This document shows positions 1 to 56,359 of a stretch of DNA of 64,000 nucleotides, one piece after another. This stretch comes from Alphaproteobacteria bacterium (GTDB lineage Bacteria; Pseudomonadota; Alphaproteobacteria; Rickettsiales; UBA998). The number at the start of each line of letters is the position of its first letter. The first letter of the stretch is position 1. The stretch covers positions 3,325 through 67,324 of the forward strand of contig JAYUJH010000041.1 in NCBI GenBank assembly GCA_043765375.1, given 5' to 3'. The notes beneath the pieces were generated by a model that ran no database searches, was not told the origin of the DNA, and saw nothing but the letters and a program-made list of their open reading frames with translations. The translations under genes and the position numbers were made by a program.

Positions 1-552
1 ATTATATCTTACAAAAGATTCAATTTTTTTATCCATCTGATTTGTAATATAACTAATACCAAAAAACAATGCCGCTAAAATGATACCTATAACCCACCTT
101 GTGTTTTCTTTAGACGATTTTTCTATTTTAGTTTCAAACTCTGCCATTTTAGTGCCAAATCCAGCTATTTTCACCTCCAAATCAGATTGAACTTTGCCAA
201 TTTTTACAGTCATATCAGCGTTTAATGTTGTTATTTGATTTTTCAATTCCTGCGATAATTGCGTAGCAATCTTGGCTGGCATGGCTTCAATGCTTGCTTC
301 CAGCTTTTGTTGATGCTCACGCATATGTTCATAATTAGCTTCCAATTTACCAACTGTTTTTGCAATATCCTCACTCACAACTATTTTCTCCTCAACTTTT
401 CCATAATACTCTATATCTGTTAAGTATTTATTAACTGGATTAACAGGCGCTGCGGAAGGTATTGTTTGGCTAGAAGGTTTGCTAGTTGATACTCCATTAT
501 CCCATTGTTTTGGATAAACAACGTTGTTTTCAATTTCTTCTTCATGCATCAT
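1..552 (-). CDS. hypothetical coiled-coil membrane protein (3' end beyond window edge)
   Basis: The minus-strand frame is open from ATG at 552/549 down to base 1; I checked every in-frame triplet. It is absent from the ORF track because no stop lies inside the window. The start overlaps the stop of the upstream ORF (ATGATGCATGA). Translation: MMHEEEIENNVVYPKQWDNGVSTSKPSSQTIPSAAPVNP...KLEANYEHMREHQQKLEASIEAM...RWVIGIILAALFFGISYI. This gives a Pro/Ser-rich head, a heptad-like middle and one TM helix. No family recognised. Confidence 0.5.
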   Translation of the reverse strand, partial: MMHEEEIENNVVYPKQWDNGVSTSKPSSQTIPSAAPVNPVNKYLTDIEYYGKVEEKIVVSEDIAKTVGKLEANYEHMREHQQKLEASIEAMPAKIATQLSQELKNQITTLNADMTVKIGKVQSDLEVKIAGFGTKMAEFETKIEKSSKENTRWVIGIILAALFFGISYITNQMDKKIESFVRYN

Positions 553-1210
553 AATCTTTTGCTATCATGTTAGATTTTTCTTTTATTTTATCAAAAATAT
601 TATCTATATTAGTTACAAAATCTAGCGTAGACCTCATTCTTGTTGCATCATTTATTTTTCTATCATAATTGGCGTTGAAAATAATCCCTTTTATTTCTGC
701 GGAGGTTGGAAAAGTAACTCCTCCTGAATTAATTGAAATTGTTGTAGATTCTTGTTTTATTTTATCCTCATATACCAATGTATAAGAAGTTTCTGTTGGT
801 TTTTCATTAATTGAAAAATGCAATTTGTTATTTAATACATCATTTGGATTTTCTTTTGGAATAATGAAGCTATAATTTAATCCCGTATGATTAATATTAT
901 ATTTAATGGCAATATTGGAAAATTGTTCTGCAATTTGTATGATATTTGCGAAAGTGACATCTTGATTTTGTATAGCGTCCTGGCGTATTTCTGCAAAATC
1001 TGGTTGTATGCTTATTATAACGTTATTACGAAACTTAAATGATTGAAAGGGTATACCATCTGGGTGCAATTTTCCTAATATTTCCCAGTTATCATCTCTT
1101 TTAGGAATGATTTTATTTGGATTTGTTATGAAATCGCTAAAAGGAATAACTCCCCCGTTTTCAGGCGAAACTCTAAACGCAAGTGAAACAAAAACGTCTA
1201 TTTTATCCAT
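542..1210 (-). CDS. hypothetical protein (222 aa), remote paralog of ORF 55241..55963
   Basis: Intact ORF with a strong SD (AGGAG, 8 nt upstream). It starts 11 nt after the glyA stop. AT-rich relative to glyA. Shares short blocks with the 240-aa ORF at 55241 (GLNYSFIIPKENPNDVLNN vs GLNFFMLLSCENCDDYINDN; FNANYDRKI vs LEANYHYEL). Confidence 0.6.
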   Translation of the reverse strand: MDKIDVFVSLAFRVSPENGGVIPFSDFITNPNKIIPKRDDNWEILGKLHPDGIPFQSFKFRNNVIISIQPDFAEIRQDAIQNQDVTFANIIQIAEQFSNIAIKYNINHTGLNYSFIIPKENPNDVLNNKLHFSINEKPTETSYTLVYEDKIKQESTTISINSGGVTFPTSAEIKGIIFNANYDRKINDATRMRSTLDFVTNIDNIFDKIKEKSNMIAKDYDA

Positions 1211-1221
1211 TGTAATATCTC

Positions 1222-2580
1222 CTACAAATCATAAATGGGGAAGCGGGCGCAAAGGGCTTGAACTTTGGCTTTGACTGATTGCTCAGTTGCGCCATTATTT
1301 TCGGGAGATTTTACTAATCCGTCCAGCACATCACCAATATATTCACCAATCAAGCAAAACTCCTCCAAGCTAAAACCACGAGTTGTTCCTGCTGGCGTGC
1401 CTAAGCGAATGCCAGAAGTTATCATTGGTGGTTGCGGATCAAACGGGATAGCATTTTTGTTACATGTTAATCCCGAACGCTCTAGGCTTTCCTCCGCTGC
1501 TTTGCCCGTTAATCCTTTTGGACGCAAATCAACCAACACAATATGGTTATCTGTTCCACCAGTGACAATATCCACCCCACGAGCAGTTAAAGTTTTGGCA
1601 AGCTCCCTTGCGTTATTGATAATCGCTTGACCATAAACTTTGAATGATGGTTGCAACGCCTCGCCATAAGCAACTGCTTTGCCTGCCATCACATGAACCA
1701 ATGGCCCGCCTTGAATCCCTGGGAACACAGCTGATTGCAATGCGGCAGCTAAAGTTACATCTGCGCCAGATTTAGTTTTGCGCACTACCATATCAGGGTT
1801 GGTTGACAATATCATTCCACCACGAGGGCCACGCAAAGTTTTGTGGGTGGTGGTTGTGACAATATGCGCATGTGGCAATGGTGAAGGATATGCTCCAGCA
1901 GCGACTAACCCTGAAATATGCGCCATATCAACCAGTAAGTAAGCCCCGATTTCATCAGCAATTGCACGGAACTTTGCCCAATCCAACACACGAGGATAAG
2001 CCGAGAATCCTGCAATAATCATTTTTGGCTTATGCTCACGGGCGAGCGCTTCAACTTCTGCGTAATCCACCAATCCAGTATCTTTATGCACACCATAATG
2101 CACGGCGTTAAACCATTTACCTGATTGATTAACTGATGCACCATGAGTTAAATGTCCACCAGCTGCTAAGGATTGCCCCATTATCGTATCATGTGGTTGC
2201 AATAATGCGGTGAACACGGCTTGATTAGCTTGAGATCCAGAGTTAGGTTGCACATTGGCATAAGCGCAAGCAAACAATTCTTTCGCACGGTCAATCGCTA
2301 ATTGCTCCACCACATCGGCGAACTCGCACCCGCCATAATAACGTTTATTGGGGTATCCTTCCGCATATTTATTGGTGAATACGCTCCCTTGCGCTTCCAT
2401 CACGGCACGGGAAACAATATTCTCGGAGGCGATTAATTCCACCCCGTTTTTTTGCCGTTGATATTCATTTTGAATGGCGTTAAAAACTGCGCTATCACGC
2501 TCAGCAAGGGTTGCGTGGAAATAGCGAGGCTCAGTGACAGCTTGGTTATTGGTTTGTGGTTTAATTGCGGCATTATTCAT
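1222..2580 (-). CDS. glyA: serine hydroxymethyltransferase
   Basis: 452 aa. Has the SHMT PLP-lysine block [14 protein letters not shown] plus VELIASEN and [13 protein letters not shown] motifs. Confidence 0.95.
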
Positions 2581-2798
2581 GTTAAAAAAATCCTTGTTAA
2601 TATTTGCGAAATGTGATGTTAAAAATAAATTATTAAATGATAACTTAGTTTATTTTGTTGCATTTGTCACTAACTCGCTTTGATTTTTTGAATAAAATAT
2701 TGTTAATTAAACAAGTAATATTTGAAGTAATTATCTATTCATTGATTATTATTGTTTTACTTCATGAAATTGTCACTTTATTTGGTTATTATATATTT

Positions 2799-3989
2799 AT
2801 GTTAGAACAGTTACTCGGAATGCTCACAAATAAAAAACCAGAAAGCAACGCCAGCAACAAGGAGGGAGGAGGCAATTCACCTCCCCCTGCACAATCCATG
2901 CAAGATATGGCAGGGAGTGCGCTCGGAGGTATTGCTGGTGGAGTGATTGAGGCGGTAAAGCCTGCCATTCTACCAATCGCAGCACTCCTCGGTGGCTTAG
3001 CAATATTCAACCCAGATATGCGTGAAAAAATTATGGGTATGTTTGGCGGGGTCATGAAAATGCTTGGCATGGGTGGTGGTGAGAAAAGCCCCGAGGAAAC
3101 AACTGGTCGCCAAGATAGCCCAAGTAATTATGGAAACGACCCTTTGGCATCAGCCAAGACCTCTTTAACTAATGCAAAAGAATCTTTAATGGGTTCTAAC
3201 TCCACAAAGTTTAATCCCGCTAAAGATGGAGTATCTTATGCTAGAAATGCAGGTGCGGAGGGCAGGGAGTTCCTAAACGCCAAGGATTATGAAGGAAAAA
3301 TATCAATTCCACAAACTGTTATTGATGATGCTAAGGCTAAGAATAAAGATGTAGAAAAAGTTTATGCTATGATTACCATAGACGCAAGCAACAATAATGG
3401 TGTTGCGGTGGCACGTGGTTTTCATGTTTTTCATGATTTGGAGAAAAATACAACAAAATTAATTCCATTTGTTTCTGGTGGGGCAGCTGGCGTTGACAAT
3501 GCTAAAGATTCTAAATCAGTAGAGGCAACCAACAGTGCGCCAATGCCCTTCTTGGTAACTGATGCAACCAAGAAAGGTGATGGAATTAATCGCATTGGTA
3601 AAATTGCAAGCGCAGATTTCAAAACTAATGACGAGTTTGGTTTTTTTGTTGAATATGATGATGGATTGGATAATAGAAGTGGAATTGGTTCGCATGAAAA
3701 CTTAAGACATGGTAGCAAGGGCGGTCAGGGAATATCAAAAGGTTGTCCAGTTGTTCGTCCCAATGATGTTGGCAGTATGCAAACGCTAATGAAAGAATAT
3801 GGCGTTGCTAGCGGAAGCAGTTTTTATATATTAGATTCAACTGAAACTGTGAATACTTCAGAAAACGCTGTGAAAAATATCGCTAAATCTATGGGCGGAA
3901 TAACACATTCTGATGCTAGCACAGGAAACAAAATATCATCAGAAGTTCCTCAAGCTAAGCTAACTCCTGAACGAATAATAGCGAAATAA
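2799..3989 (+). CDS. membrane-anchored hypothetical protein with C-terminal YkuD/Tlde1-like (L,D-transpeptidase fold) motif
   Basis: The track ORF is 2655..3989. I prefer the first ATG at 2799 (MLEQLLGM...), because the upstream part is an AT-rich hydrophobic read-through. Features: Gly-rich TM region (AGSALGGIAGGVIEAVKPAILPIAALLGGLAIF) and the C-terminal motif FFVEYDDG...SHENLRHGSKGGQGISKGCPVVRPND, which resembles H-x(12-17)-S-x-G-C-[IV]. Confidence 0.55.
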   Translation: MLEQLLGMLTNKKPESNASNKEGGGNSPPPAQSMQDMAGSALGGIAGGVIEAVKPAILPIAALLGGLAIFNPDMREKIMGMFGGVMKMLGMGGGEKSPEETTGRQDSPSNYGNDPLASAKTSLTNAKESLMGSNSTKFNPAKDGVSYARNAGAEGREFLNAKDYEGKISIPQTVIDDAKAKNKDVEKVYAMITIDASNNNGVAVARGFHVFHDLEKNTTKLIPFVSGGAAGVDNAKDSKSVEATNSAPMPFLVTDATKKGDGINRIGKIASADFKTNDEFGFFVEYDDGLDNRSGIGSHENLRHGSKGGQGISKGCPVVRPNDVGSMQTLMKEYGVASGSSFYILDSTETVNTSENAVKNIAKSMGGITHSDASTGNKISSEVPQAKLTPERIIAK

Positions 3990-4126: not shown

Positions 4127-5209
4127 ATGGCAAAAAACGCAAGTTTTAATGGTATCGCATCAGGGTTGTTCACCGCACCGCAGGATAAAAACGGTGGTAG
4201 TGAGGAATATCATATTGATATGAAGTTCAAAGATTTAATTGCCAAAGGTGATTGGAAAAGCGTTGTTGAGATATTAGACACTGTATCTAAGCAATATGAA
4301 TCACGTGGGCTGCATATGGAGTTTTCTAACAGTGGCGTTGGAGGAGAAAAGTGGAATCATAACGCCTCACCAGATGCAAAAATGGCACTCGCCAAGCAAG
4401 CAGTTGGTGCGCATAATCATAACCCAGCAACAACTGGTTTTTCTTTGGATTTCTATATTGTTCCACAGGGCAAAGATAGATTTGACGCTTCTGTTTCCAA
4501 ACCAACTGAAATGGCTTTAGCAGTTCCCGAGGGTGGAGCAGTGCGCTATTTTACTGGTGGAGGTTATGGGAATAATGCGCAAGTTTTAGGAAAAGATGGC
4601 AAAGAATTATTCACCATAGGGCATGGAGGCACTAACAACCCATTGCCGAAAAACTTTGATGTTACCCCTCAATTTTTAGCTTCAAAAAACATCACTCCAG
4701 TTGGTGACCCAAAAGCTCCCGCACCTACGCCATCATCTGCGATTGCTGGAAAGCAAAATCTGCCAACTGAAGAAGAAGCAAAAAACAGCATTGAGAAGAA
4801 AGGAGCTAAAAACACATATCAAGATATGATGTCAAATATGTTTGGTGGTGGTAACGAGCAGGGTGGTGGTGGATTTTTAGGTTTCATGCTTTTTGCATTG
4901 GTTGCTATGGCATCAGGTCAAAACCTAGAAGGGATTCAAAAGCATGATACTGATGAAAAAAGAAATGCTGAATTAGAACGAATTGATGAACAAAGGAGGC
5001 AGGGACAATCCAAGCTAAATAACGACATTGTTCTTGCAAAGCCCGCGACAACTCCTTCTGTTCAATCTAAACAATCAAACGGCATTCAAATCTCACCTGA
5101 TATATTACCAGCTACTCCAATATCCCAAGCGCAAACTATTGCAACTAACGAACCACCAGCATCAACTCCTCAAATTATAAGCAGCAATAGAGTGAGTGTA
5201 AATATTTAG
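4127..5209 (+). CDS. hypothetical protein (360 aa) with internal Gly-run plus TM helix
   Basis: Intact ORF with a purine-rich stretch (AGGGAA) upstream. Central MFGGGNEQGGGGFLGFMLFALVAMASG segment, Ser/Thr/Pro/Gln-rich C-terminal tail, no Cys. No family recognised. Confidence 0.55.
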   Translation: MAKNASFNGIASGLFTAPQDKNGGSEEYHIDMKFKDLIAKGDWKSVVEILDTVSKQYESRGLHMEFSNSGVGGEKWNHNASPDAKMALAKQAVGAHNHNPATTGFSLDFYIVPQGKDRFDASVSKPTEMALAVPEGGAVRYFTGGGYGNNAQVLGKDGKELFTIGHGGTNNPLPKNFDVTPQFLASKNITPVGDPKAPAPTPSSAIAGKQNLPTEEEAKNSIEKKGAKNTYQDMMSNMFGGGNEQGGGGFLGFMLFALVAMASGQNLEGIQKHDTDEKRNAELERIDEQRRQGQSKLNNDIVLAKPATTPSVQSKQSNGIQISPDILPATPISQAQTIATNEPPASTPQIISSNRVSVNI

Positions 5210-49597: not shown

Positions 49598-49665
49598 TTT
49601 TATAATATTAGTAAAATCCATGATATATATAAAAATATTTGACAAATGCGTTGATTATAGGTTTG

Positions 49666-52600
49666 ATGGTGGCTATGGAAAATGATGGCAAATTGAAATA
49701 TTATTCATCTGAGCTGGAGCAGCATTTTGGCAAGCATGGTATGTATGATGCGAGTGATGAGCATGATGCTTGCGGGGTTGGTTTGGTCGCAGCGATTGAT
49801 GGCAACCCAAGGCGTGAAGTGATTGATAAAGCGATTGCTGCGCTGAAATCTGTGTGGCATCGTGGGGCGGTGAATGGTGATGGCAAAACGGGCGACGGTG
49901 CGGGAATCCATTTGCAATTACCGCATAATTTTTTCGCAAGCGTTGTGCCAACATATGCACAAGCGATTGCTGAAGGCGCGCCTGTTGGGGTGGGAATGTT
50001 GTTTCTGCCACGCACAGATGCGGGAGCGCAGGAAGAGGCAAAACTGATTATTGAAACGGAGATTGCTCGCCTTAATATGCGCATAATAGGGTGGCGACAA
50101 GTGCCAATTCGCCCTGAAATTATTGGTGATGATGCTAATTTCACTCGCCCTGAAATTATGCAGGTGTTTATTCGTGGTGCTGTTGCGCCCCTTAAAAATA
50201 TATTCACCCCCCCTCCCAACCTCCCCCCGCAAGGGGGGGAGGAGCCGTTTGCGAACGACCCTCCAGAGCAAAAACGAGGGGAGGAGCTGTTTGCGAACGA
50301 CCCCCCAGAACAGAAAATGAGCTTTGCTTCTACGCAAAAAATGGAGCAGGAGTTTAGCGCAGACAATGCGCAGAGGGATAAAAATAATGATGAGTTTGAA
50401 CGCAATTTATATATTATTCGCCGTCGTATTGAGCGTAAATTACGGCAAGCAGCGATTAATGATTGCTATATTTGCTCGCTTTCAAGCCGTATTATAATTT
50501 ATAAAGGCCTGTTTCAAGCATCGCATTTGAGTGTGTTTTATCCTGAATTGAACAATCCGTTGCTTGTTTCATCATATGCTATTTTTCATCAGCGATTTTC
50601 CACTAATACCGCACCAAGTTGGGCGATGGCGCAGCCTTTTCGTATGGTAGCGCATAATGGTGAGATTAACACGCTTCGTGGCAATGTGAACTGGATGAGC
50701 AGCTATGAGGCTTGTTTTGGGGCGGAAGTTTTTGCCCATGCGATTGAGGATTTAACCCCGATTGTGCCACCGAGTGGTTCTGACACTGCAATGCTTGATG
50801 CGGTGATGGAGTTTATCACTTTATCAGGCAAGAAATTACCATTTTCAAAGTTGATGTTGATTCCGCCAGCTTGGCGCAAAGATGATGATTTGATTGAGGA
50901 TTCACACAAAGCATTATATGAATATGCAAATTGTTTAATGTCACCATGGGACGGCCCCGCAGCGATTGTGGCGTGTGATGGTAATTGGGTGGTTGCAGGG
51001 ACTGACCGCAATGGGTTGCGCCCTTTGCGTTATGCGATAACTAAGGATGGGTTGCTTACCGTTGGTTCAGAAACTGGAATGGTAGCATTAGCGAGTGATG
51101 ATGTGTTGCACTTGGGGCAGCTTTCACCAGGGCAGTTGATCGGGGTGGATTTATGCACGGGTAAATATTACGGTGATGTGGAGCTGAAAAATTATTTGGC
51201 AAGTGCAGCTGATTATGCAGACAAAATCGCTAATATTAAAGAGATTAGGATTGGGGGGGTTAAGGTTGTTGAAGATGATGTTAATCAAAATGAAGTATTA
51301 AATATATCTGAGAATGATAATCAATCGCATGATGTTAGTTCGCTATTAAATCAGCAATTTGCAGCGGGATTTTCGGCAGAAGATATTGATATGATAATAT
51401 TGCCAATGTTGCGTGATGGCAAGGAGGCTGTTGGTTCAATGGGTGATGATACGCCTTTGGCAGTGATGTCTTCACATTATCGTGGGTTGCATCATTTTTT
51501 CAGGCAGCATTTTTCACAAGTAACCAATCCACCGATTGACCCGTTGCGTGAGGCTCATGCGATGAGTTTGGCGACAAAAGTTGGTATGGTGCGCAATATT
51601 TTGGGAGAAAATCCAGATTTATCAGCGATAGTTCATTTGGATACGCCAATTTTGATGCAAGCGGAAATGCAAGCATTGCTCGCACATTTTGCGGGGCTTC
51701 ATTCATGTGTGTTGGATTGCACTTATGGCGCAAGCGATGATGCAGATGCGTTGCGTAATGCGATTGATGAATTAATCATGCAAGCTGATGACGCAATCAA
51801 GCATGGGGCGCAAATGCTGGTTTTATGTGATATGAACGCGGGGGCGGATAGGTTGGTTATTCCAGCAATTTTGGCAGCGGCAGCCGTGCATACTCATATG
51901 GTGAATCTGCGCAAACGTAAGCAATTATCAATTATTTCACGAACATCATGTGTGTGTGATACTCATAGCATGGCAGTGCTGATTGGCGTGGGAGCAACGG
52001 CGGTATATCCATATTTGATGGAGCAAACGGCTCGGAGTTTATGCGATGCTGGTAAGGTGAAATATGTAACAAAAACTTTACCAATACAATCTTCAGTTAT
52101 ACCCTCTCCTCAACCCACTTTTCCCTCTCCCCTAGCCCCTCTCCCAGAGGGCGAGGGGAACTCTCTCAAAAATCATATTGCCCTCTCCCCACCAATTACC
52201 TCACCCCTCACCCCTACCCTCTCCCAAGGGGAGAGGGAGGCACTCAATCAGCAGCATTACTCTAAATTAAGCCGATATATGGTTGAGTTTGCTAGAGAAT
52301 TGCGTCAGAACTCCTCAAACGTGCAGCAAGCATTATGGCAAGTTTTACGCAATAGTAATTTACAAGTCAAGTTTCGTAGGCAACACCCGATTGATAACTT
52401 AATTATAGATTTTTATTGCCATGAATTAAAATTAGGAATTGAGATATTTAAGGTTAAGGCAGAATTATCAAAACAACAATATCTGCAAACTAAAAATATT
52501 AAATTATTACAATTTGATAATCAAGAAATGCTGAAAGATGTTGGTAAGTTCATAAATATCATTATTGATGAAATTGAAATGCGCCAGAAACTCAGCATTC

Positions 52601-55176
52601 AAGATAAAGACAGCATTCAAAAATATAGTTCTGGATTTAGCGTTCCCTCTCCCAAAGGGAGAGGGCAGGGTGAGGTTATCTCCCCTCTCCTCATAGGAGA
52701 GGGGCAGGGGGTGAGGTCTGGTAGTGATATTTCTATAATTGAGTTTGAGCAAGCTATTAAAAATCTGCGTCATGCTTATGAACAGGGTATGTTGAAGATT
52801 ATGTCAAAAATGGGCATTTCGGTGATAAGTTCGTATCGTGGAGGGCGCAATTTTGATGCAATTGGTCTATCACGTTCACTGGTGGCGGAGTTTTTTCCGG
52901 GGTTGGTTTCTCGCATTTCGGGGATTGGGTTGCAGGAGTTGCAGCGTAAAATCAAGGATTTGCATGATGTGGCTTATAATAAAAAAAATCCGTTAGCAAT
53001 TGGGAGCCTACCAATAGGGGGCCTACCAATTGGAGGCCTACCAATAGGAGGATTTTATCGTTATCGCAATAATGGTGAAAAACATGCTTATGAAGGTGAA
53101 TTAATTCATCGTTTGCAAACGGCATGTGCTACGGGGAGTTATAAACAATATCTAGATTTCGTCAGTGGAGTTGCTAAGCAAGAAGCAATTCACATACGTT
53201 CACTGTTTGAGTTTAACTCGGATCGCAAAGCAATTTTGTTGCAGGAAGTGGAATCTGTGCAAAATATTCGCAAGCGTTTTGTTGCCCCCGCCATGTCACT
53301 TGGGTCGCTAAGTCCAGAGGCACATCATACGCTAGCAATTGCTATGAACCGTATCGGAGCGGCGAGTAATTCGGGCGAAGGTGGTGAAGGAGCAGAGCGA
53401 TATTATCCGTTAGCCAATGGTGATAATCCTAATTCTAGCATCAAACAAGTTGCATCGGGGCGTTTTGGGGTAACAGCGCAATATTTGCAACATTGCTCGG
53501 AGATTCAAATAAAGGTGGCGCAAGGAGCAAAACCGGGTGAAGGGGGGCAGTTGCCATCATTCAAAGTGACGGCTGAAATTGCTCGGTTGCGCCATACAAC
53601 TATTGGCACAATGTTAATTTCACCACCGCCACATCATGATATATATTCCATAGAAGATTTAGCGCAGTTAATTTATGACCTTAAACAAATTAATCCGAAT
53701 GCGATTGTGTCCGTCAAGTTGGTGGCGCAATCAGGAATTGGGACGATTGCAAGCGGGGTGGTGAAAGCGTTGGCGGATAAAATCATTATTTCAGGGCATG
53801 TGGGAGGAACTGGTGCAAGCCCGCTTTCTAGCATAAAATATGCTGGTGTTCCTTGGGAAATGGGGCTGGCGGAGGTGAGCCAAGTTCTTGCGATTAATAA
53901 ACTCCGTCATAGGGTGCGGTTGCAAACTGATGGCGGTTTGAAAGTTGGGCGTGATATTGTGATTGCCGCTATGCTTGGTGCAGATGAATATGCAATTGGA
54001 ACACTTTCATTGGTGGCGATGGGTTGTTTGATGGTGCGACAATGTCATAGCAACACTTGCCCCGTTGGGATTTGCACGCAAAATGAGCAATTACGCAAGC
54101 ATTTTGATGGCACGCCAGAGAAGGTGATTAACCTGATGAGCTTTATCGCTGAAGATGTGCGTCATATTTTGGCAGATTTGGGTTATTCCTCGCTTAATGA
54201 AATTATCGGCCGCACTGATTTGTTGCGGCAAATGGTGCATGAAAATGCGGATATTAATATGTTGGATTTAACGCCGTTACTCACCCGACCAACTTTACAC
54301 AATGCAGAAATGAAGCAAGATTCACGCCCCTATAACCCTGTTGCAGATGCGTTGGATAGCAAGATTATCGCTGAAGCAGGAGAATCACTAAGGTTGGGGC
54401 AGAAAGTGCAGTTGAATTATACGGTGCATAATACTGACCGAACCATAGGAGCGGGTCTTTCACATTATTTGTTGAAGCATCATAGTGATATGAGTGGTGA
54501 TATGAGACTAACAGATACCATGCTAACAGATAATTTAGTGCAGCTTTCATTGCAAGGGACAGCGGGGCAATCACTTGGAGCATTTTTGGTGCATGGCGTG
54601 GTGATTAATTTGCAAGGTGATGCGAATGATTATGTTGGCAAAGGGCTTTCAGGCGGGCGAATTATTGTGCGCCCTGACCCTGCATCGGGGCTTGTGAGCC
54701 AACAAAATGCAATTATTGGTAACACAGTGCTTTATGGCGCAACTAGTGGAGAATTATATGCGGCGGGGATTGCGGGTGAGCGTTTTGCGGTGCGTAACTC
54801 GGGGGCGATAGCGGTGATTGAGGGTTGCGGTTCAAACGCACTGGAATATATGACTGGTGGTGTGGTGGTGATACTCGGCAAAACTGGTAATAATATAGCA
54901 GCGGGAATGACGGGCGGAATTGCTTATATTTATGATGAAACTTTGATTGATGGGCGGGGATTATTACCGCAATTAATTAATAATGAAAATGTGGTTTGTA
55001 AAAATATGGTTTATAAAAACATAGTTTATAATGGGGTTTCAGATGCGGAGCATATTGTGAAATTGCAGCAATTAATTGAAAAGCATGTGCGCTATACTGG
55101 TTCAATATATGCGCAAAATATTTTGGAGAGTTGGGAGCAAAGTTTGCAATGCTTTTGGGTGGTGCAACCAAAATAA
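49666..55176 (+). CDS. gltB: glutamate synthase large subunit, with several in-frame insertions
   Basis: All four GltB domains are recognisable: Ntn amidotransferase CGVGLVA...; central FFRQHFSQVTNPPIDPLRE; FMN domain QVASGRFGV...KPGEGGQLP...ISPPPHHDIYSIEDLAQLI; C-terminal GXGXG beta-helix. The start is ambiguous (TTG 49639, ATG 49666, ATG 49675). Length is about 1840 aa, against about 1500 expected. Confidence 0.9.
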   Translation: MVAMENDGKLKYYSSELEQHFGKHGMYDASDEHDACGVGLVAAIDGNPRREVIDKAIAALKSVWHRGAVNGDGKTGDGAGIHLQLPHNFFASVVPTYAQAIAEGAPVGVGMLFLPRTDAGAQEEAKLIIETEIARLNMRIIGWRQVPIRPEIIGDDANFTRPEIMQVFIRGAVAPLKNIFTPPPNLPPQGGEEPFANDPPEQKRGEELFANDPPEQKMSFASTQKMEQEFSADNAQRDKNNDEFERNLYIIRRRIERKLRQAAINDCYICSLSSRIIIYKGLFQASHLSVFYPELNNPLLVSSYAIFHQRFSTNTAPSWAMAQPFRMVAHNGEINTLRGNVNWMSSYEACFGAEVFAHAIEDLTPIVPPSGSDTAMLDAVMEFITLSGKKLPFSKLMLIPPAWRKDDDLIEDSHKALYEYANCLMSPWDGPAAIVACDGNWVVAGTDRNGLRPLRYAITKDGLLTVGSETGMVALASDDVLHLGQLSPGQLIGVDLCTGKYYGDVELKNYLASAADYADKIANIKEIRIGGVKVVEDDVNQNEVLNISENDNQSHDVSSLLNQQFAAGFSAEDIDMIILPMLRDGKEAVGSMGDDTPLAVMSSHYRGLHHFFRQHFSQVTNPPIDPLREAHAMSLATKVGMVRNILGENPDLSAIVHLDTPILMQAEMQALLAHFAGLHSCVLDCTYGASDDADALRNAIDELIMQADDAIKHGAQMLVLCDMNAGADRLVIPAILAAAAVHTHMVNLRKRKQLSIISRTSCVCDTHSMAVLIGVGATAVYPYLMEQTARSLCDAGKVKYVTKTLPIQSSVIPSPQPTFPSPLAPLPEGEGNSLKNHIALSPPITSPLTPTLSQGEREALNQQHYSKLSRYMVEFARELRQNSSNVQQALWQVLRNSNLQVKFRRQHPIDNLIIDFYCHELKLGIEIFKVKAELSKQQYLQTKNIKLLQFDNQEMLKDVGKFINIIIDEIEMRQKLSIQDKDSIQKYSSGFSVPSPKGRGQGEVISPLLIGEGQGVRSGSDISIIEFEQAIKNLRHAYEQGMLKIMSKMGISVISSYRGGRNFDAIGLSRSLVAEFFPGLVSRISGIGLQELQRKIKDLHDVAYNKKNPLAIGSLPIGGLPIGGLPIGGFYRYRNNGEKHAYEGELIHRLQTACATGSYKQYLDFVSGVAKQEAIHIRSLFEFNSDRKAILLQEVESVQNIRKRFVAPAMSLGSLSPEAHHTLAIAMNRIGAASNSGEGGEGAERYYPLANGDNPNSSIKQVASGRFGVTAQYLQHCSEIQIKVAQGAKPGEGGQLPSFKVTAEIARLRHTTIGTMLISPPPHHDIYSIEDLAQLIYDLKQINPNAIVSVKLVAQSGIGTIASGVVKALADKIIISGHVGGTGASPLSSIKYAGVPWEMGLAEVSQVLAINKLRHRVRLQTDGGLKVGRDIVIAAMLGADEYAIGTLSLVAMGCLMVRQCHSNTCPVGICTQNEQLRKHFDGTPEKVINLMSFIAEDVRHILADLGYSSLNEIIGRTDLLRQMVHENADINMLDLTPLLTRPTLHNAEMKQDSRPYNPVADALDSKIIAEAGESLRLGQKVQLNYTVHNTDRTIGAGLSHYLLKHHSDMSGDMRLTDTMLTDNLVQLSLQGTAGQSLGAFLVHGVVINLQGDANDYVGKGLSGGRIIVRPDPASGLVSQQNAIIGNTVLYGATSGELYAAGIAGERFAVRNSGAIAVIEGCGSNALEYMTGGVVVILGKTGNNIAAGMTGGIAYIYDETLIDGRGLLPQLINNENVVCKNMVYKNIVYNGVSDAEHIVKLQQLIEKHVRYTGSIYAQNILESWEQSLQCFWVVQPK
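50205..50320 (+). repeat. in-frame GC-rich hairpin plus 42-nt tandem duplication inside gltB
   Basis: CCTCCCCCC-GCAA-GGGGGGGAGG (50220-50242), followed by two 42-nt units encoding GEEPFANDPPEQKR / GEELFANDPPEQKM. Confidence 0.75.
52085..52735 (+). mobile_element. in-frame insertion in gltB: degenerate DUF559/Vsr-like endonuclease domain flanked by two GC-rich hairpins on each side
   Basis: Core ~52270-52590 encodes FARELRQNSSNVQQALWQVLRNSNLQVKFRRQHPIDNLIIDFYCHELKLGIEI...LLQFDNQEM. Hairpins lie at 52136-52158, 52217-52237, 52645-52665 and 52682-52704. No stop codon. GltB-like sequence resumes at FEQAIKNLRHAYEQGMLKIMSKMG. Confidence 0.7.
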
Positions 55177-55240: not shown

Positions 55241-55963
55241 ATGCATAGTTTTTCAATTAATAGTAAATCGATAGTTTTTATTTCAGAAGCTGTAGGTAAT
55301 ATTGTTTCACAAAATGGAATAGATATTATAACATCATCGAATAATTCTATTGATAATAAAAAAATACCAGCATTTTATGTTAATCAATTTGATTTAAGTG
55401 AAAACAAAGTCATAGATAAAACTTGGGAAGAAGAAGAAAGACCAGTTTATACCGGGGTTGAAGCAAATATAATTTATAAAAATGGAATAAATATTGCAGC
55501 GCAATTCAATAGATTAATGGTAGCTAATAATAAACAAGATATATCTGACACAGTATTCACGACTAAAGCAAAAAATTTGTATAAAATGCTTAATGATAAA
55601 GAAATAAAACCTAATCAAATAGGATTAAATTTTTTCATGTTATTAAGTTGTGAAAATTGCGATGATTATATTAATGATAACTTTTTGAATAAAAGCGTAT
55701 TTTCAAAACTAGGAAAATCAGTGTTGCAACCTTACGTAAGAGTTTCATATGAAATTACAGAATATGAAAAATTAAATATAGCAATTTACACAGCTAAAAA
55801 AGAAAATATCAAGAACAACACTATGTCGGGAGATGAATTTGTTGTGCTTGAAGCCAATTATCATTATGAATTAAAATCTGAAAATACCTCTGCAAACATT
55901 ATAATAGATAACAGCAAGAAAAAATTAGATTTACTTAAAAAGTTATTTTCCATAGAGTCTTAA
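55241..55963 (+). CDS. hypothetical protein (240 aa), remote paralog of ORF 542..1210
   Basis: Very AT-rich intact ORF 64 nt after gltB. Shares blocks with the 222-aa ORF (see that entry). Confidence 0.55.
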   Translation: MHSFSINSKSIVFISEAVGNIVSQNGIDIITSSNNSIDNKKIPAFYVNQFDLSENKVIDKTWEEEERPVYTGVEANIIYKNGINIAAQFNRLMVANNKQDISDTVFTTKAKNLYKMLNDKEIKPNQIGLNFFMLLSCENCDDYINDNFLNKSVFSKLGKSVLQPYVRVSYEITEYEKLNIAIYTAKKENIKNNTMSGDEFVVLEANYHYELKSENTSANIIIDNSKKKLDLLKKLFSIES

Positions 55964-55966
55964 GCA

Positions 55967-56359
55967 ATGAACTCACCAACAATACCTACAGGAACAGTTA
56001 CTAACCCAGCATTATCTTCAACCGCAGCTAGTGCAAGTTTCACAGTTTCACCGCCTCAATTAACACAGGTTCCTAATCAAGGTAGCAAAGGCTGGATGAA
56101 ATATTTTAATAACACTCCTGTTATTTCCGTAATTGTATGTTTAATTGCAACTATAATAGGCATGGCTATTAATATTTACTATAAGGATAACAGTCAAGTA
56201 ACTACAGATATTGTAAACTTGGCTGATAAACTTGAGACAATAAATAATAATTTGATAAACAACAATAATTCTATTAATGCAAAGATAGATAATCTGGATG
56301 TTAGATTAACTCATAGAATAGATTTGCTTTTTCAAGATAATAAAAACAAAATAAAATGA
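55967..56359 (+). CDS. small membrane protein: Pro/Ser/Thr-rich head, TM helix, Asn-rich coiled coil (130 aa)
   Basis: Starts 3 nt after the previous stop. TM VISVIVCLIATIIGMAINIY, then DIVNLADKLETINNNL...IDNLDVRLTHRIDLL. Its stop overlaps the SDR start (ATGA). Confidence 0.5.
   Translation: MNSPTIPTGTVTNPALSSTAASASFTVSPPQLTQVPNQGSKGWMKYFNNTPVISVIVCLIATIIGMAINIYYKDNSQVTTDIVNLADKLETINNNLINNNNSINAKIDNLDVRLTHRIDLLFQDNKNKIK

What the first reader, a model, noticed from the sequence alone, without database searches (positions are those of the whole stretch)
1..1210. AT-rich two-gene cassette (222-aa protein plus coiled-coil TM protein) attached to glyA: copy 1 of 2
Directly after glyA (11-nt gap, strong AGGAG SD) comes a 222-aa ORF of unknown family. 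Its stop overlaps the start of a second ORF, which is open to the window edge.

The second ORF has a Pro/Ser-rich head, a heptad-rich segment and one TM helix. Both genes are visibly AT-richer than glyA.

A cassette with the same architecture and weak but specific sequence similarity lies at 55241-56359:
- IDVFVS vs SIVFIS
- GLNYSFIIPKENPNDVLNN vs GLNFFMLLSCENCDDYINDN
- VYED vs SYEI
- FNANYDRKI vs LEANYHYEL

A duplicated, diverged and translationally coupled soluble-plus-membrane pair inserted next to unrelated housekeeping genes is the pattern expected of an accessory system (abortive infection, toxin/antitoxin-like, or an effector pair). I cannot assign either protein to a family. A TIGR04255-like fold for the larger protein is only a guess.
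Basis: partly seen in the sequence, partly recalled or inferred. Interest (0 to 1): 0.7.

Follow-up and report, generated by a model that had tools for sequence, protein, structure and literature searches.

The report
Uncharacterised soluble-plus-membrane gene pair, two copies
The two AT-rich genes after glyA are a real, very rare and unannotated gene pair (a cytoplasmic protein plus a one-helix membrane protein) that occurs twice in this window and in about a dozen other places in public data. It looks like an accessory, possibly anti-phage, module, but its function is still untested.

Summary
glyA (1222-2580, -) is followed after 11 nt by a 222-aa ORF (A1, 542-1210). An overlapping ORF (B1, from 552) runs off the window and is 215 aa on the parent contig, where nrdR follows with a 4-nt overlap.

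A1 matches no family in Pfam, NCBIfam (including TIGR04255), PADLOC, PHROGs or PDB. An exhaustive HMMER search and a profile search found only about 13 relatives among billions of proteins. In all 11 places with gene calls, the A gene is followed within 4 nt, or overlapped by 4-11 nt, by a downstream gene. Where that gene could be read in full (9 places), it encodes a single-pass coiled-coil membrane protein.

The second window copy is homologous. An A-family HMM built without it finds A2 as the only non-member hit among 10,891 ORFs (E=1.5e-8). B1 and B2 differ in type: coiled coil then TM, versus TM then coiled coil.

glyA-A-B-nrdR is conserved in at least three further related contigs. More distant relatives lack the pair. 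A and B have about 5 times the dN of glyA, and A is 25-38% GC against 41-53% around it. One subfamily-II copy lies in a recombinase-bearing defence island.

Best reading: a new accessory two-gene module, probably a cytoplasmic sensor with a membrane effector. The function is inferred, not shown.

The parts
542..1210 (-). A1: 222-aa cytoplasmic alpha+beta protein, founding member of an unannotated family (subfamily I)
   Evidence: ORF. Relatives. AF2 model with a 13-sequence alignment has pLDDT 84 and pTM 0.82. No Pfam, NCBIfam, PADLOC, PHROGs or PDB match. dN/dS is about 0.25 against the L094 orthologue.
1..552 (-). B1 (first 184 of 215 codons; the rest lies beyond the window edge): variable Pro/Ser head, conserved coiled coil, one TM helix (residues 153-171), Pro-rich tail. 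It overlaps the A1 stop by 8-11 nt.
   Evidence: Orthologues aligned. Sub-threshold PF07798 CCDC90-like match.
1211..1221 (-). 11-nt glyA-A1 spacer. An AGGAG Shine-Dalgarno overlaps the glyA stop codon.
   Evidence: Sequence read directly. No same-strand terminator between glyA and nrdR.
1222..2580 (-). glyA (serine hydroxymethyltransferase), the upstream gene of the host operon. Context only, not part of the module.
   Evidence: Pfam SHMT on the parent contig. 60-79% identical to alphaproteobacterial glyA.
55241..55963 (+). A2: 240-aa distant homologue of the A family (third, divergent branch, nearer to subfamily II)
   Evidence: hmmsearch E=1.5e-8 as the only non-member hit among 10,891 ORFs. 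hhalign P=2.3e-5. Subfamily II HMM 24.9 bits vs subfamily I 14.0 bits. GC 25%.
55967..56359 (+). B2: 130-aa single-pass membrane protein of type-II layout (Ser/Thr/Pro-rich head, TM at residues 52-70, C-terminal coiled coil). Starts 3 nt after the A2 stop; its own stop overlaps the start of the downstream SDR gene (ATGA).
   Evidence: Top non-member hit of the B-II HMM, but only E=0.0076.

Best explanation
**Shown**
- A and B form a conserved, co-transcribed, tightly coupled two-gene module.
- A is a soluble alpha+beta protein of about 225 aa. It has no signal peptide and no invariant catalytic-type residues. The conserved positions are mostly hydrophobic, plus G110, N112, G163, G175, N181, Y182 and R184.
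- B is a single-pass membrane protein with a coiled coil.
- The module is extremely rare and much more AT-rich than every genome it sits in.
- It lies in unrelated genomic contexts, including a recombinase-bearing defence island.
- Its dN is about 5 times that of the flanking housekeeping genes, while it stays under purifying selection.
- This genome carries two subtypes. Each is embedded in a housekeeping operon: glyA-A1-B1-nrdR and gltB-A2-B2-SDR.

**Inferred**
- A stays in the cytoplasm and binds the cytoplasmic part of B. That part would be the coiled coil in type-I B, and the conserved N-terminal MDxNPTIVxL peptide in type-II B.
- A acts as the fast-evolving specificity or sensor subunit. 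It controls oligomerisation of the more conserved coiled-coil/TM core of B in the inner membrane.
- The most likely biological role is a conflict system of the abortive-infection type. On a trigger such as a phage protein, B would perturb the membrane.
- The housekeeping operons supply transcription only.
For: **Family and pairing**
- Searches found the relatives.
-, plus copy 2 in the window, cover 11 of 11 places in which A is followed by a downstream gene with a gap of at most 4 nt or a 4-11 nt overlap.
- The 9 B proteins that could be translated each have exactly one TM helix.

**A2 belongs to the family**
-.

**Real genes**
- AF2 gives pLDDT 84 from only 13 sequences.
- dN/dS is about 0.25.

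**Fast evolution**
- Between the window and L094/L095, A is 53/34% identical and B 66/31%. glyA is 92/87% and nrdR 89/78%.
- dN is 0.35 for A against 0.063 for glyA.
- In the B1 alignment, the coiled-coil/TM core is nearly identical to the L094 orthologue while the head and tail diverge. This fits a conserved effector with a variable partner.

**Foreign composition**
- A is 25-31% GC (38% in L089) against 41-53% in its surroundings, in all 9 loci.

**Insertion**
- Relatives with 68-79% identical glyA lack the pair between glyA and nrdR.

**Mobile and defence context**
- In L084 a large serine recombinase lies directly upstream and RepB downstream.
- PADLOC PDC-S01 (470 bits), PDC-S28 (1132 bits), PDC-S05/RhuM (500 bits) and a type IIG restriction-modification system lie within 8 kb.
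- L091 has a PHROG-matching neighbour.

**From my own knowledge, not tested here**
- Lactococcal abi genes are also markedly more AT-rich than their hosts.
Against: - There is no homology to any known defence protein.
- There is no phenotype and no toxicity data.
- Only one of about 11 loci is a recognisable defence island.
- The glyA-linked copy has been kept at the same site in at least 4 diverged genomes, with dS saturated. This is more stable than the rapid gain and loss typical of defence genes.
- The hosts look like Rickettsiales-type bacteria, for which phage pressure is uncertain.
- The family is absent from IMG/VR, phage and plasmid collections.
- The A-B physical interaction and the membrane topology are not shown. 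Flanking charges are ambiguous.
- Type-I and type-II B proteins are not detectably homologous, so a single common mechanism is an assumption.
Confidence: 0.4

Rival explanations
1. A lineage-specific envelope or host-interaction factor. B would be a membrane-anchored coiled-coil protein, and A its cytoplasmic adaptor or chaperone. The pair would be used by these Rickettsiales-like (probably host-associated) bacteria, and it would evolve fast because of interaction with a eukaryotic host or through relaxed constraint.
For: - Long-term syntenic retention of glyA-A-B-nrdR in at least 4 genomes.
- Translational coupling to housekeeping genes on both sides.
- Moderate purifying selection.
- Neighbouring Pfam-less ORFs in the same genome.
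- The conserved positions of A are mostly structural rather than catalytic.
Against: - Other family members sit in unrelated contexts and in genomes of very different GC content (53% in L087).
- One of those contexts is a recombinase-bearing defence island.
- A has no secretion signal.
- The closest outgroups lack the pair.
Confidence: 0.25
2. A toxin-antitoxin-like addiction module. B would be a small membrane-damaging toxin of holin or XhlA type. The upstream, overlapping A would be its protein antidote. This would explain retention inside operons.
For: - Antidote-first gene order with 4-11 nt overlaps.
- Weak resemblance of B to XhlA/hemolysin, holin and i-spanin PHROG and Pfam families.
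- AT-rich, patchy, mobile-element-associated distribution.
Against: - The resemblances to lysis proteins are sub-threshold and driven by coiled-coil/TM composition.
- A is large for an antitoxin and has no DNA-binding domain.
- There are only two copies in this genome, and the family is extremely rare for a toxin-antitoxin family.
- No toxicity data exist.
Confidence: 0.15
3. A remnant of a phage lysis or morphogenesis cassette: an XhlA-like or spanin-like membrane protein plus a structural protein, domesticated or decaying.
For: - The A1 model's best structural neighbour is an unnamed viral protein in BFVD (A0A515MGR4, E=7.8e-9, TM 0.55/0.60).
- B proteins weakly hit Rz-like spanin and hemolysin PHROGs.
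- L091 has a PHROG-matching neighbour.
Against: - No endolysin, holin, o-spanin or other phage genes lie near either window copy.
- There are no relatives in IMG/VR or GenBank phages.
- The ORFs are intact and under purifying selection in several genomes.
Confidence: 0.05
4. Spurious ORFs in AT-rich spacer DNA, with the two-copy similarity arising by chance.
For: - Low GC content.
- No database family.
- The pairwise BLASTP between A1 and A2 is not significant.
Against: - Thirteen full-length homologues were found.
- The partner gene is conserved.
- AF2 gives a confident model from the alignment.
- dN/dS is about 0.25.
- Profile E=1.5e-8 for A2.
Confidence: 0.01

Closest known systems
Two-gene abortive-infection systems with a cytoplasmic sensor and a membrane effector (e.g. 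lambda RexA/RexB; lactococcal two-gene Abi systems such as AbiT)
   Same: - A soluble protein of about 220-280 aa is paired with a small membrane protein.
- The genes are tightly linked.
- The genes are atypically AT-rich, the distribution is patchy, and one copy lies in a defence island.
- This is a comparison of how it might work, not of family membership.
   Different: - There is no sequence or fold similarity (PADLOC; PDB).
- B has one TM helix plus a coiled coil. RexB has four TM helices (my own knowledge).
- No phenotype is known.
- One copy is stably embedded in a housekeeping operon.
PF07798 CCDC90-like / DUF1640 (MCUR1 family) and PF10779 XhlA: coiled coil followed by a C-terminal TM helix
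   Same: - Type-I B proteins share the layout of coiled coil then C-terminal TM.
- They give the best (sub-threshold) Pfam matches over the coiled-coil-plus-TM part of the model: L094 B E=1.4e-5 at 25.5 bits, B1 E=0.0013.
   Different: - Scores are below the gathering threshold (33.5 bits).
- Two of the four type-I B proteins do not hit at all.
- XhlA matches only at E=0.65.
- Type-II B proteins (including B2) have the opposite order of TM and coiled coil.
- None of these families is known to be paired with an A-like gene.
TIGR04255 family
   Same: Similar length, and an alpha+beta protein of unknown function with sporadic distribution (my own recollection).
   Different: - No TIGR04255 hit at E<=1 for any of the 13 A-family members in NCBIfam.
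- Fold-level similarity could not be tested.
Bitopic membrane proteins with a short conserved cytoplasmic N-terminal peptide, a TM helix and a periplasmic coiled coil, which dock a cytoplasmic partner (PilN with PilM; FtsB/FtsL/DivIC; i-spanin Rz)
   Same: - Type-II B proteins have a conserved N-terminal peptide (MDxNPTIVxL..TSTST), a low-complexity linker, one TM helix and a coiled coil of 60-80 aa.
- This suggests the N-terminal peptide is the docking site for A.
   Different: - There is no significant sequence match (Rz-like phrog_739 only at E=0.006-0.03).
- No pilus, divisome or lysis genes are nearby.
- The topology is not established.

Membership tests
TIGR04255 family (NCBIfam) | Match to the TIGR04255 HMM at or above its curated cut-off | tested here: not met
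   hmmscan of A1 and A2 and of all 13 A-family members at E<=1 gave no TIGR04255 hit.
TIGR04255 family (NCBIfam) | Shared three-dimensional fold | not testable with these tools
   No TIGR04255 structure or sequence was available. Foldseek against PDB gave no convincing neighbour (best TM 0.33).
PF07798 CCDC90-like (DUF1640) | Score at or above the Pfam gathering threshold (33.5 bits) | tested here: not met
   B1 scored 19 bits and L094 B 25.5 bits. L095 B and L089 B gave no hit.
PF07798 CCDC90-like (DUF1640) | Coiled coil followed by a single C-terminal TM helix | tested here: met
   Type-I B proteins have their TM at residues 146-187 after about 90 aa of coiled coil. This is not true of B2 or the type-II B proteins.
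PF10779 XhlA / phage hemolysin-holin-like proteins | Significant HMM match and a neighbouring holin/endolysin lysis cassette | tested here: not met
   XhlA E=0.65. PHROG hemolysin E=0.026-0.043. No lysis genes lie next to either window copy.
Known or candidate anti-phage defence systems (PADLOC-DB v2.0.0) | HMM match of at least one component to a catalogued system | tested here: not met
   No hit for A1, A2, P0004, P0006, P0007 or P0014. B proteins gave only coiled-coil noise at E>=0.002.
Known or candidate anti-phage defence systems (PADLOC-DB v2.0.0) | Enrichment next to known defence genes or in mobile islands | tested here: inconclusive
   L084 is a clear case: PDC-S01, PDC-S28, PDC-S05, a type IIG restriction-modification system, a serine recombinase and RepB. 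The other loci are housekeeping or too short.
Known or candidate anti-phage defence systems (PADLOC-DB v2.0.0) | Protection against phage when expressed | not testable with these tools
   This needs an experiment.
Type II toxin-antitoxin modules | Small overlapping gene pair with the antitoxin first | tested here: met
   A precedes B with a 4-11 nt overlap or a gap of at most 4 nt in 11 of 11 places with gene calls.
Type II toxin-antitoxin modules | Recognisable toxin fold, and an antitoxin with a DNA-binding domain | tested here: not met
   No Pfam or NCBIfam domain was found in A or B.
Lambda RexAB-type sensor/membrane-effector pair | Homology to RexA/RexB, and a polytopic (4-TM) membrane partner | tested here: not met
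   No PADLOC or PDB match. B has a single TM helix. The 4-TM figure for RexB comes from my own knowledge.

The most novel reading that the evidence does not exclude
The pair defines a previously undescribed membrane-acting conflict system, anti-phage or abortive-infection-like.
- Its sensor subunit has a fold with no close solved relative.
- It exists in at least three subtypes whose membrane partners have swapped domain order.
- In one clade of Rickettsiales-like bacteria it has been captured inside the glyA-nrdR operon and kept for a long time. A second subtype sits inside the gltB operon of the same genome.
Probability: 0.3. Interest if true: 0.7.

Novelty: new variant of a known kind. Interest (0 to 1): 0.55.

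Why it matters
If the module is a working sensor-plus-membrane-effector system, three things follow.
- It adds a new protein family pair, and probably a new fold, to the catalogue of bacterial conflict systems.
- It comes from a poorly sampled group of host-associated alphaproteobacteria.
- It shows how such a module can be carried for long periods as a passenger inside housekeeping operons.

Even without a function, it turns two 'hypothetical proteins' into a defined family. The family has a confident structural model, a conserved partner and clear subtypes, and it can be tested directly by expression in E. coli.

Tried and rejected
**Searches that gave nothing usable**
- Word-indexed homology searches with A1 and A2 alone returned only the proteins themselves.
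- AF2 on the single A1 sequence was useless, with pLDDT 33.
- Pfam, NCBIfam, PADLOC and PHROGs gave no assignment for A. For B they gave only coiled-coil or TM composition hits.
- A profile search against PDB sequences gave only noise, T4 lysozyme at E=0.11.
- Foldseek against PDB: the best hits (AdoMetDC prozyme, SRPBCC proteins, actin-capping protein) have TM<=0.33, so I rejected them as fold assignments.
- tblastn of P0007 against the plasmid and phage collections found no match.
- IMG/VR scans with the subfamily II profile, A1 and A2 found nothing.
- The metagenome scan returned only the known L084 contig and one fragment.
- The 13-sequence alignment was too diverse for locus scanning.
- The literature holds no paper mentioning TIGR04255. 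The DUF1640 papers concern mitochondrial MCUR1 or passing annotations.

**Comparisons that were negative**
- B1 vs B2, B-I profile vs B-II profile, and B-I profile vs B2 showed no significant similarity.
- B2 vs the B-II profile was negative by hhalign and only marginal by hmmsearch, E=0.0076.
- I looked for an internal repeat in A by aligning the two halves of the profile; none was found. The two-half description therefore rests on the order of secondary-structure elements only.
- No insertion scars or flanking repeats surround either cassette; there are only short AT-rich chance matches.
- Promoter-like and terminator-like sites are not above shuffled expectation.

**Ideas considered and rejected**
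- A functional link to glyA or nrdR: the family also occurs without them, in copy 2 and in L084, L087, L088, L089 and L091.
- A recent tandem or segmental duplication as the origin of copy 2: A2 is closer to subfamily II than to A1.
Full report
**1. What is in the sequence**

On the minus strand, glyA occupies 1222-2580. Its TAG stop is part of an AGGAG, and after an 11-nt spacer a 222-aa ORF (A1, 542-1210) begins.

A second ORF (B1) starts at ATGATG (552/549), overlaps the A1 stop by 8-11 nt, and runs off the window. The parent contig is a 492-kb metagenome contig (L001). It shows that B1 is 215 aa and that nrdR follows with a 4-nt overlap, so the order is glyA-A1-B1-nrdR.

B1 has four parts: a Pro/Ser-rich head, a long segment that matches only coiled-coil families below threshold, exactly one hydrophobic helix (residues 153-171), and a Pro-rich tail. 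GC content is 29% for A1 and 36% for B1, against 46% for glyA and 45% for nrdR.

The second cassette is A2 (240 aa, 55241-55963) and B2 (130 aa, 55967-56359). It lies between gltB and a short-chain dehydrogenase (SDR) gene, whose ATG overlaps the B2 stop. No same-strand terminator-like site interrupts either arrangement.

**2. A is a real but very rare family**

- Pfam, NCBIfam, PADLOC and PHROGs give nothing for A1 or A2.
- Word-indexed searches returned only the proteins themselves.
- The exhaustive HMMER search over 1.84 billion representatives found six full-length relatives, 26-52% identical.
- A profile search added six more.
- The family splits into subfamily I (A1, P0003-P0006, P0008) and subfamily II (P0007, P0009-P0014). 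The two are clearly homologous: hhalign between the A1-seeded 7-sequence profile and the subfamily II profile gives P=5e-42.
- All members that carry a source name are called 'hypothetical protein'.
- With the 13-sequence alignment, AlphaFold2 gives a confident model: pLDDT 84 and pTM 0.82, against 33 without the alignment.
- The order of elements is strand, short helix, four strands and a long helix, then strand, helix, three long strands and a 27-residue C-terminal helix. I read this as two alpha+beta halves. That is my interpretation; no sequence-level repeat is detectable.
- Foldseek finds no convincing solved relative (best TM 0.33). It finds one unnamed viral protein in BFVD (E=7.8e-9, TM 0.55/0.60).
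- The conserved positions are mostly hydrophobic, plus G110, N112, G163, G175, N181, Y182 and R184. This looks like a binding or scaffold protein rather than an enzyme, which is an inference.

**3. The two window copies are homologous, but are different subtypes**

- Pairwise, A1 and A2 are marginal: BLASTP E=0.32, and 2 of 2000 shuffles reach the Smith-Waterman score.
- The signal grows as the profile grows: hhalign P=3.5e-4 with 7 sequences and 2.3e-5 with 13.
- An HMM built without A2 was searched against all 10,891 six-frame ORFs of the window and every fetched locus (1.1 Mb). A2 was the only non-member hit, at E=1.5e-8; the next ORF scored E=6.6.
- A2 scores 24.9 bits against subfamily II and 14.0 bits against subfamily I. 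Copy 2 is therefore not a recent duplicate of copy 1.

**4. The partner gene is always there, in two layouts**

In all 11 places with gene calls, A is followed by a downstream gene with a gap of at most 4 nt or a 4-11 nt overlap. These places are the window twice, L084, L087, L088, L089, L091, L094, L095, and the contigs carrying P0005 and P0008. Each of the 9 B proteins that could be translated has exactly one TM helix. For the P0005 and P0008 contigs no DNA was returned, so only the gene calls are known.

| Layout | Members | Order of parts |
|---|---|---|
| Type I | B1, L094, L095, L089 | variable head, conserved coiled coil (GxLEA motif), TM, Pro/Gln-rich tail |
| Type II | partners of subfamily II | conserved N-terminal peptide MDxNPTIVxL..TSTST, Ser/Thr/Pro linker, TM, coiled coil of 60-80 aa |

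- B2 has the type-II layout, including an N-terminal MNSPTI. It is the top non-member hit of the B-II HMM, but only at E=0.0076.
- Type I and type II are not detectably homologous.
- Type-I B proteins resemble PF07798 CCDC90-like/DUF1640 below threshold.

**5. History**

The nearest species-representative genomes are 'Rickettsiales bacterium' MAGs with glyA 79, 71 and 68% identical. They have glyA next to nrdR without the pair: L005 has a 170-nt gap, L006 a 4-nt gap, and L004 an unrelated 177-aa lipoprotein-like ORF. The pair is therefore an insertion into an ancestrally adjacent gene pair.

The insertion is old. glyA-A-B-nrdR is conserved in L094, in L095 (a 752-kb contig, also followed by fliS, fliD and flagellin as in this genome), and in the contig with P0005.

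| Gene | Identity, window vs L094 | Identity, window vs L095 |
|---|---|---|
| glyA | 92% | 87% |
| nrdR | 89% | 78% |
| A | 53% | 34% |
| B | 66% | 31% |

(All.)

Nei-Gojobori estimates for window vs L094 give dN 0.35 for A and 0.28 for B, against 0.063 for glyA. dS is about 1.4 and near saturation, so dN/dS is roughly 0.25 for A. The genes are constrained but evolve about five times faster than their neighbours. Within B1, the coiled-coil/TM core is almost unchanged against L094 while the head and tail diverge.

In all nine loci with DNA, A is 25-31% GC (38% in L089) against 41-53% around it, including a 53% GC background in L087. No flanking repeats mark either insertion.

**6. Context elsewhere**

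- In L084 the pair lies directly after a large serine recombinase and before RepB.
- Within 8 kb of it are PADLOC candidates PDC-S01, PDC-S28 and PDC-S05 (RhuM) and a type IIG restriction-modification system, i.e. a mobile defence island.
- L091 has a PHROG-matching neighbour.
- L087 is a housekeeping context between yjdM and thiC.
- L089 follows a lytic transglycosylase gene and an unknown ORF.
- No relatives were found in IMG/VR, GenBank phages or PLSDB plasmids.

**7. Interpretation**

Shown: a conserved, tightly coupled two-gene module encoding a soluble protein and a bitopic coiled-coil membrane protein. It is rare, compositionally foreign, found in unrelated contexts, fast-evolving, and present here as two subtypes that sit inside housekeeping operons.

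Inferred:
- A binds the cytoplasmic part of B.
- A is the variable specificity subunit, and the B core is the conserved membrane-acting part.
- The system is most likely a conflict module of the abortive-infection type. I give this 0.4.

Rivals:

| Rival reading | Confidence |
|---|---|
| Lineage-specific envelope or host-interaction factor (favoured by the long syntenic retention) | 0.25 |
| Toxin-antitoxin-like addiction pair | 0.15 |
| Phage lysis remnant | 0.05 |
| Spurious ORFs | 0.01 |

A functional link to glyA or nrdR is unlikely, because other family members lack these neighbours.

**8. Comparison with known families, and verdict**

Membership of CCDC90-like, XhlA, any PADLOC family, or recognisable toxin-antitoxin folds is not met. 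Only architectural resemblances remain.

I rate it a new variant of a known kind: an accessory soluble-plus-membrane pair built from unannotated families. Interest is 0.55. It is solid and testable, but has no demonstrated function.

Noticed in passing
window 49639-55176 (+), especially about 52280-52580 and about 50200-50400: The gltB ORF is 1845 aa. It carries an in-frame DUF559 (Vsr-like endonuclease, PF04480, 60 bits) at residues 882-979, which splits the Glu_syn_central domain. The insert is flanked by Pro/Gly-rich peptides (PLPEGEGN, SPKGRGQGEV, GEGQGVRS). A second insert of about 50 aa, containing a repeat (PPEQK...FANDPPEQK), splits GATase_2. These could be in-frame mobile insertions or palindromic-element-type insertions.
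   Followed up: partly
window 2655-3989 (+) and 4127-5209 (+): Two further ORFs (444 and 360 aa) without any Pfam match lie next to glyA on the other strand. They are also called as genes on the parent contig. The 444-aa one has a Gly/Ser/Pro-rich N-terminal region.
   Followed up: no
L004:7492-8025: In the closest species-representative genome (glyA 79% identical), the glyA-nrdR gap holds a different, Pfam-less 177-aa ORF with a lipoprotein-like signal (MRLLCAVLCVMLLASC). This suggests the junction repeatedly accepts accessory genes.
   Followed up: partly
L084:1-14494 (JGI Ga0256839_1001943): This is a compact mobile defence island. It holds a serine recombinase, the A/B pair, RepB, PDC-S28 (DEAD helicase), an HTH_17 protein, PDC-S05 (RhuM), a split MmeI/Eco57I-type IIG restriction-modification system, a T5orf172 protein, and PDC-S01 (AAA_14/DUF4143).
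   Followed up: partly
L001:10659-11306 and L094:1952-2683: Type-I B proteins from these Rickettsiales-like bacteria give sub-threshold matches to PF07798 CCDC90-like. That is the family of the mitochondrial inner-membrane protein MCUR1, and the matches cover the coiled-coil-plus-C-terminal-TM part (E=0.0013 and 1.4e-5). This is probably convergence of architecture, and I did not resolve it.
   Followed up: partly
L001:14830-17697 (-) and L095:14608-17520 (-): Unusually long flagellin genes (955 and 970 aa, with Flagellin_N and Flagellin_C at the ends) lie a few genes beyond nrdR in both related genomes.
   Followed up: no
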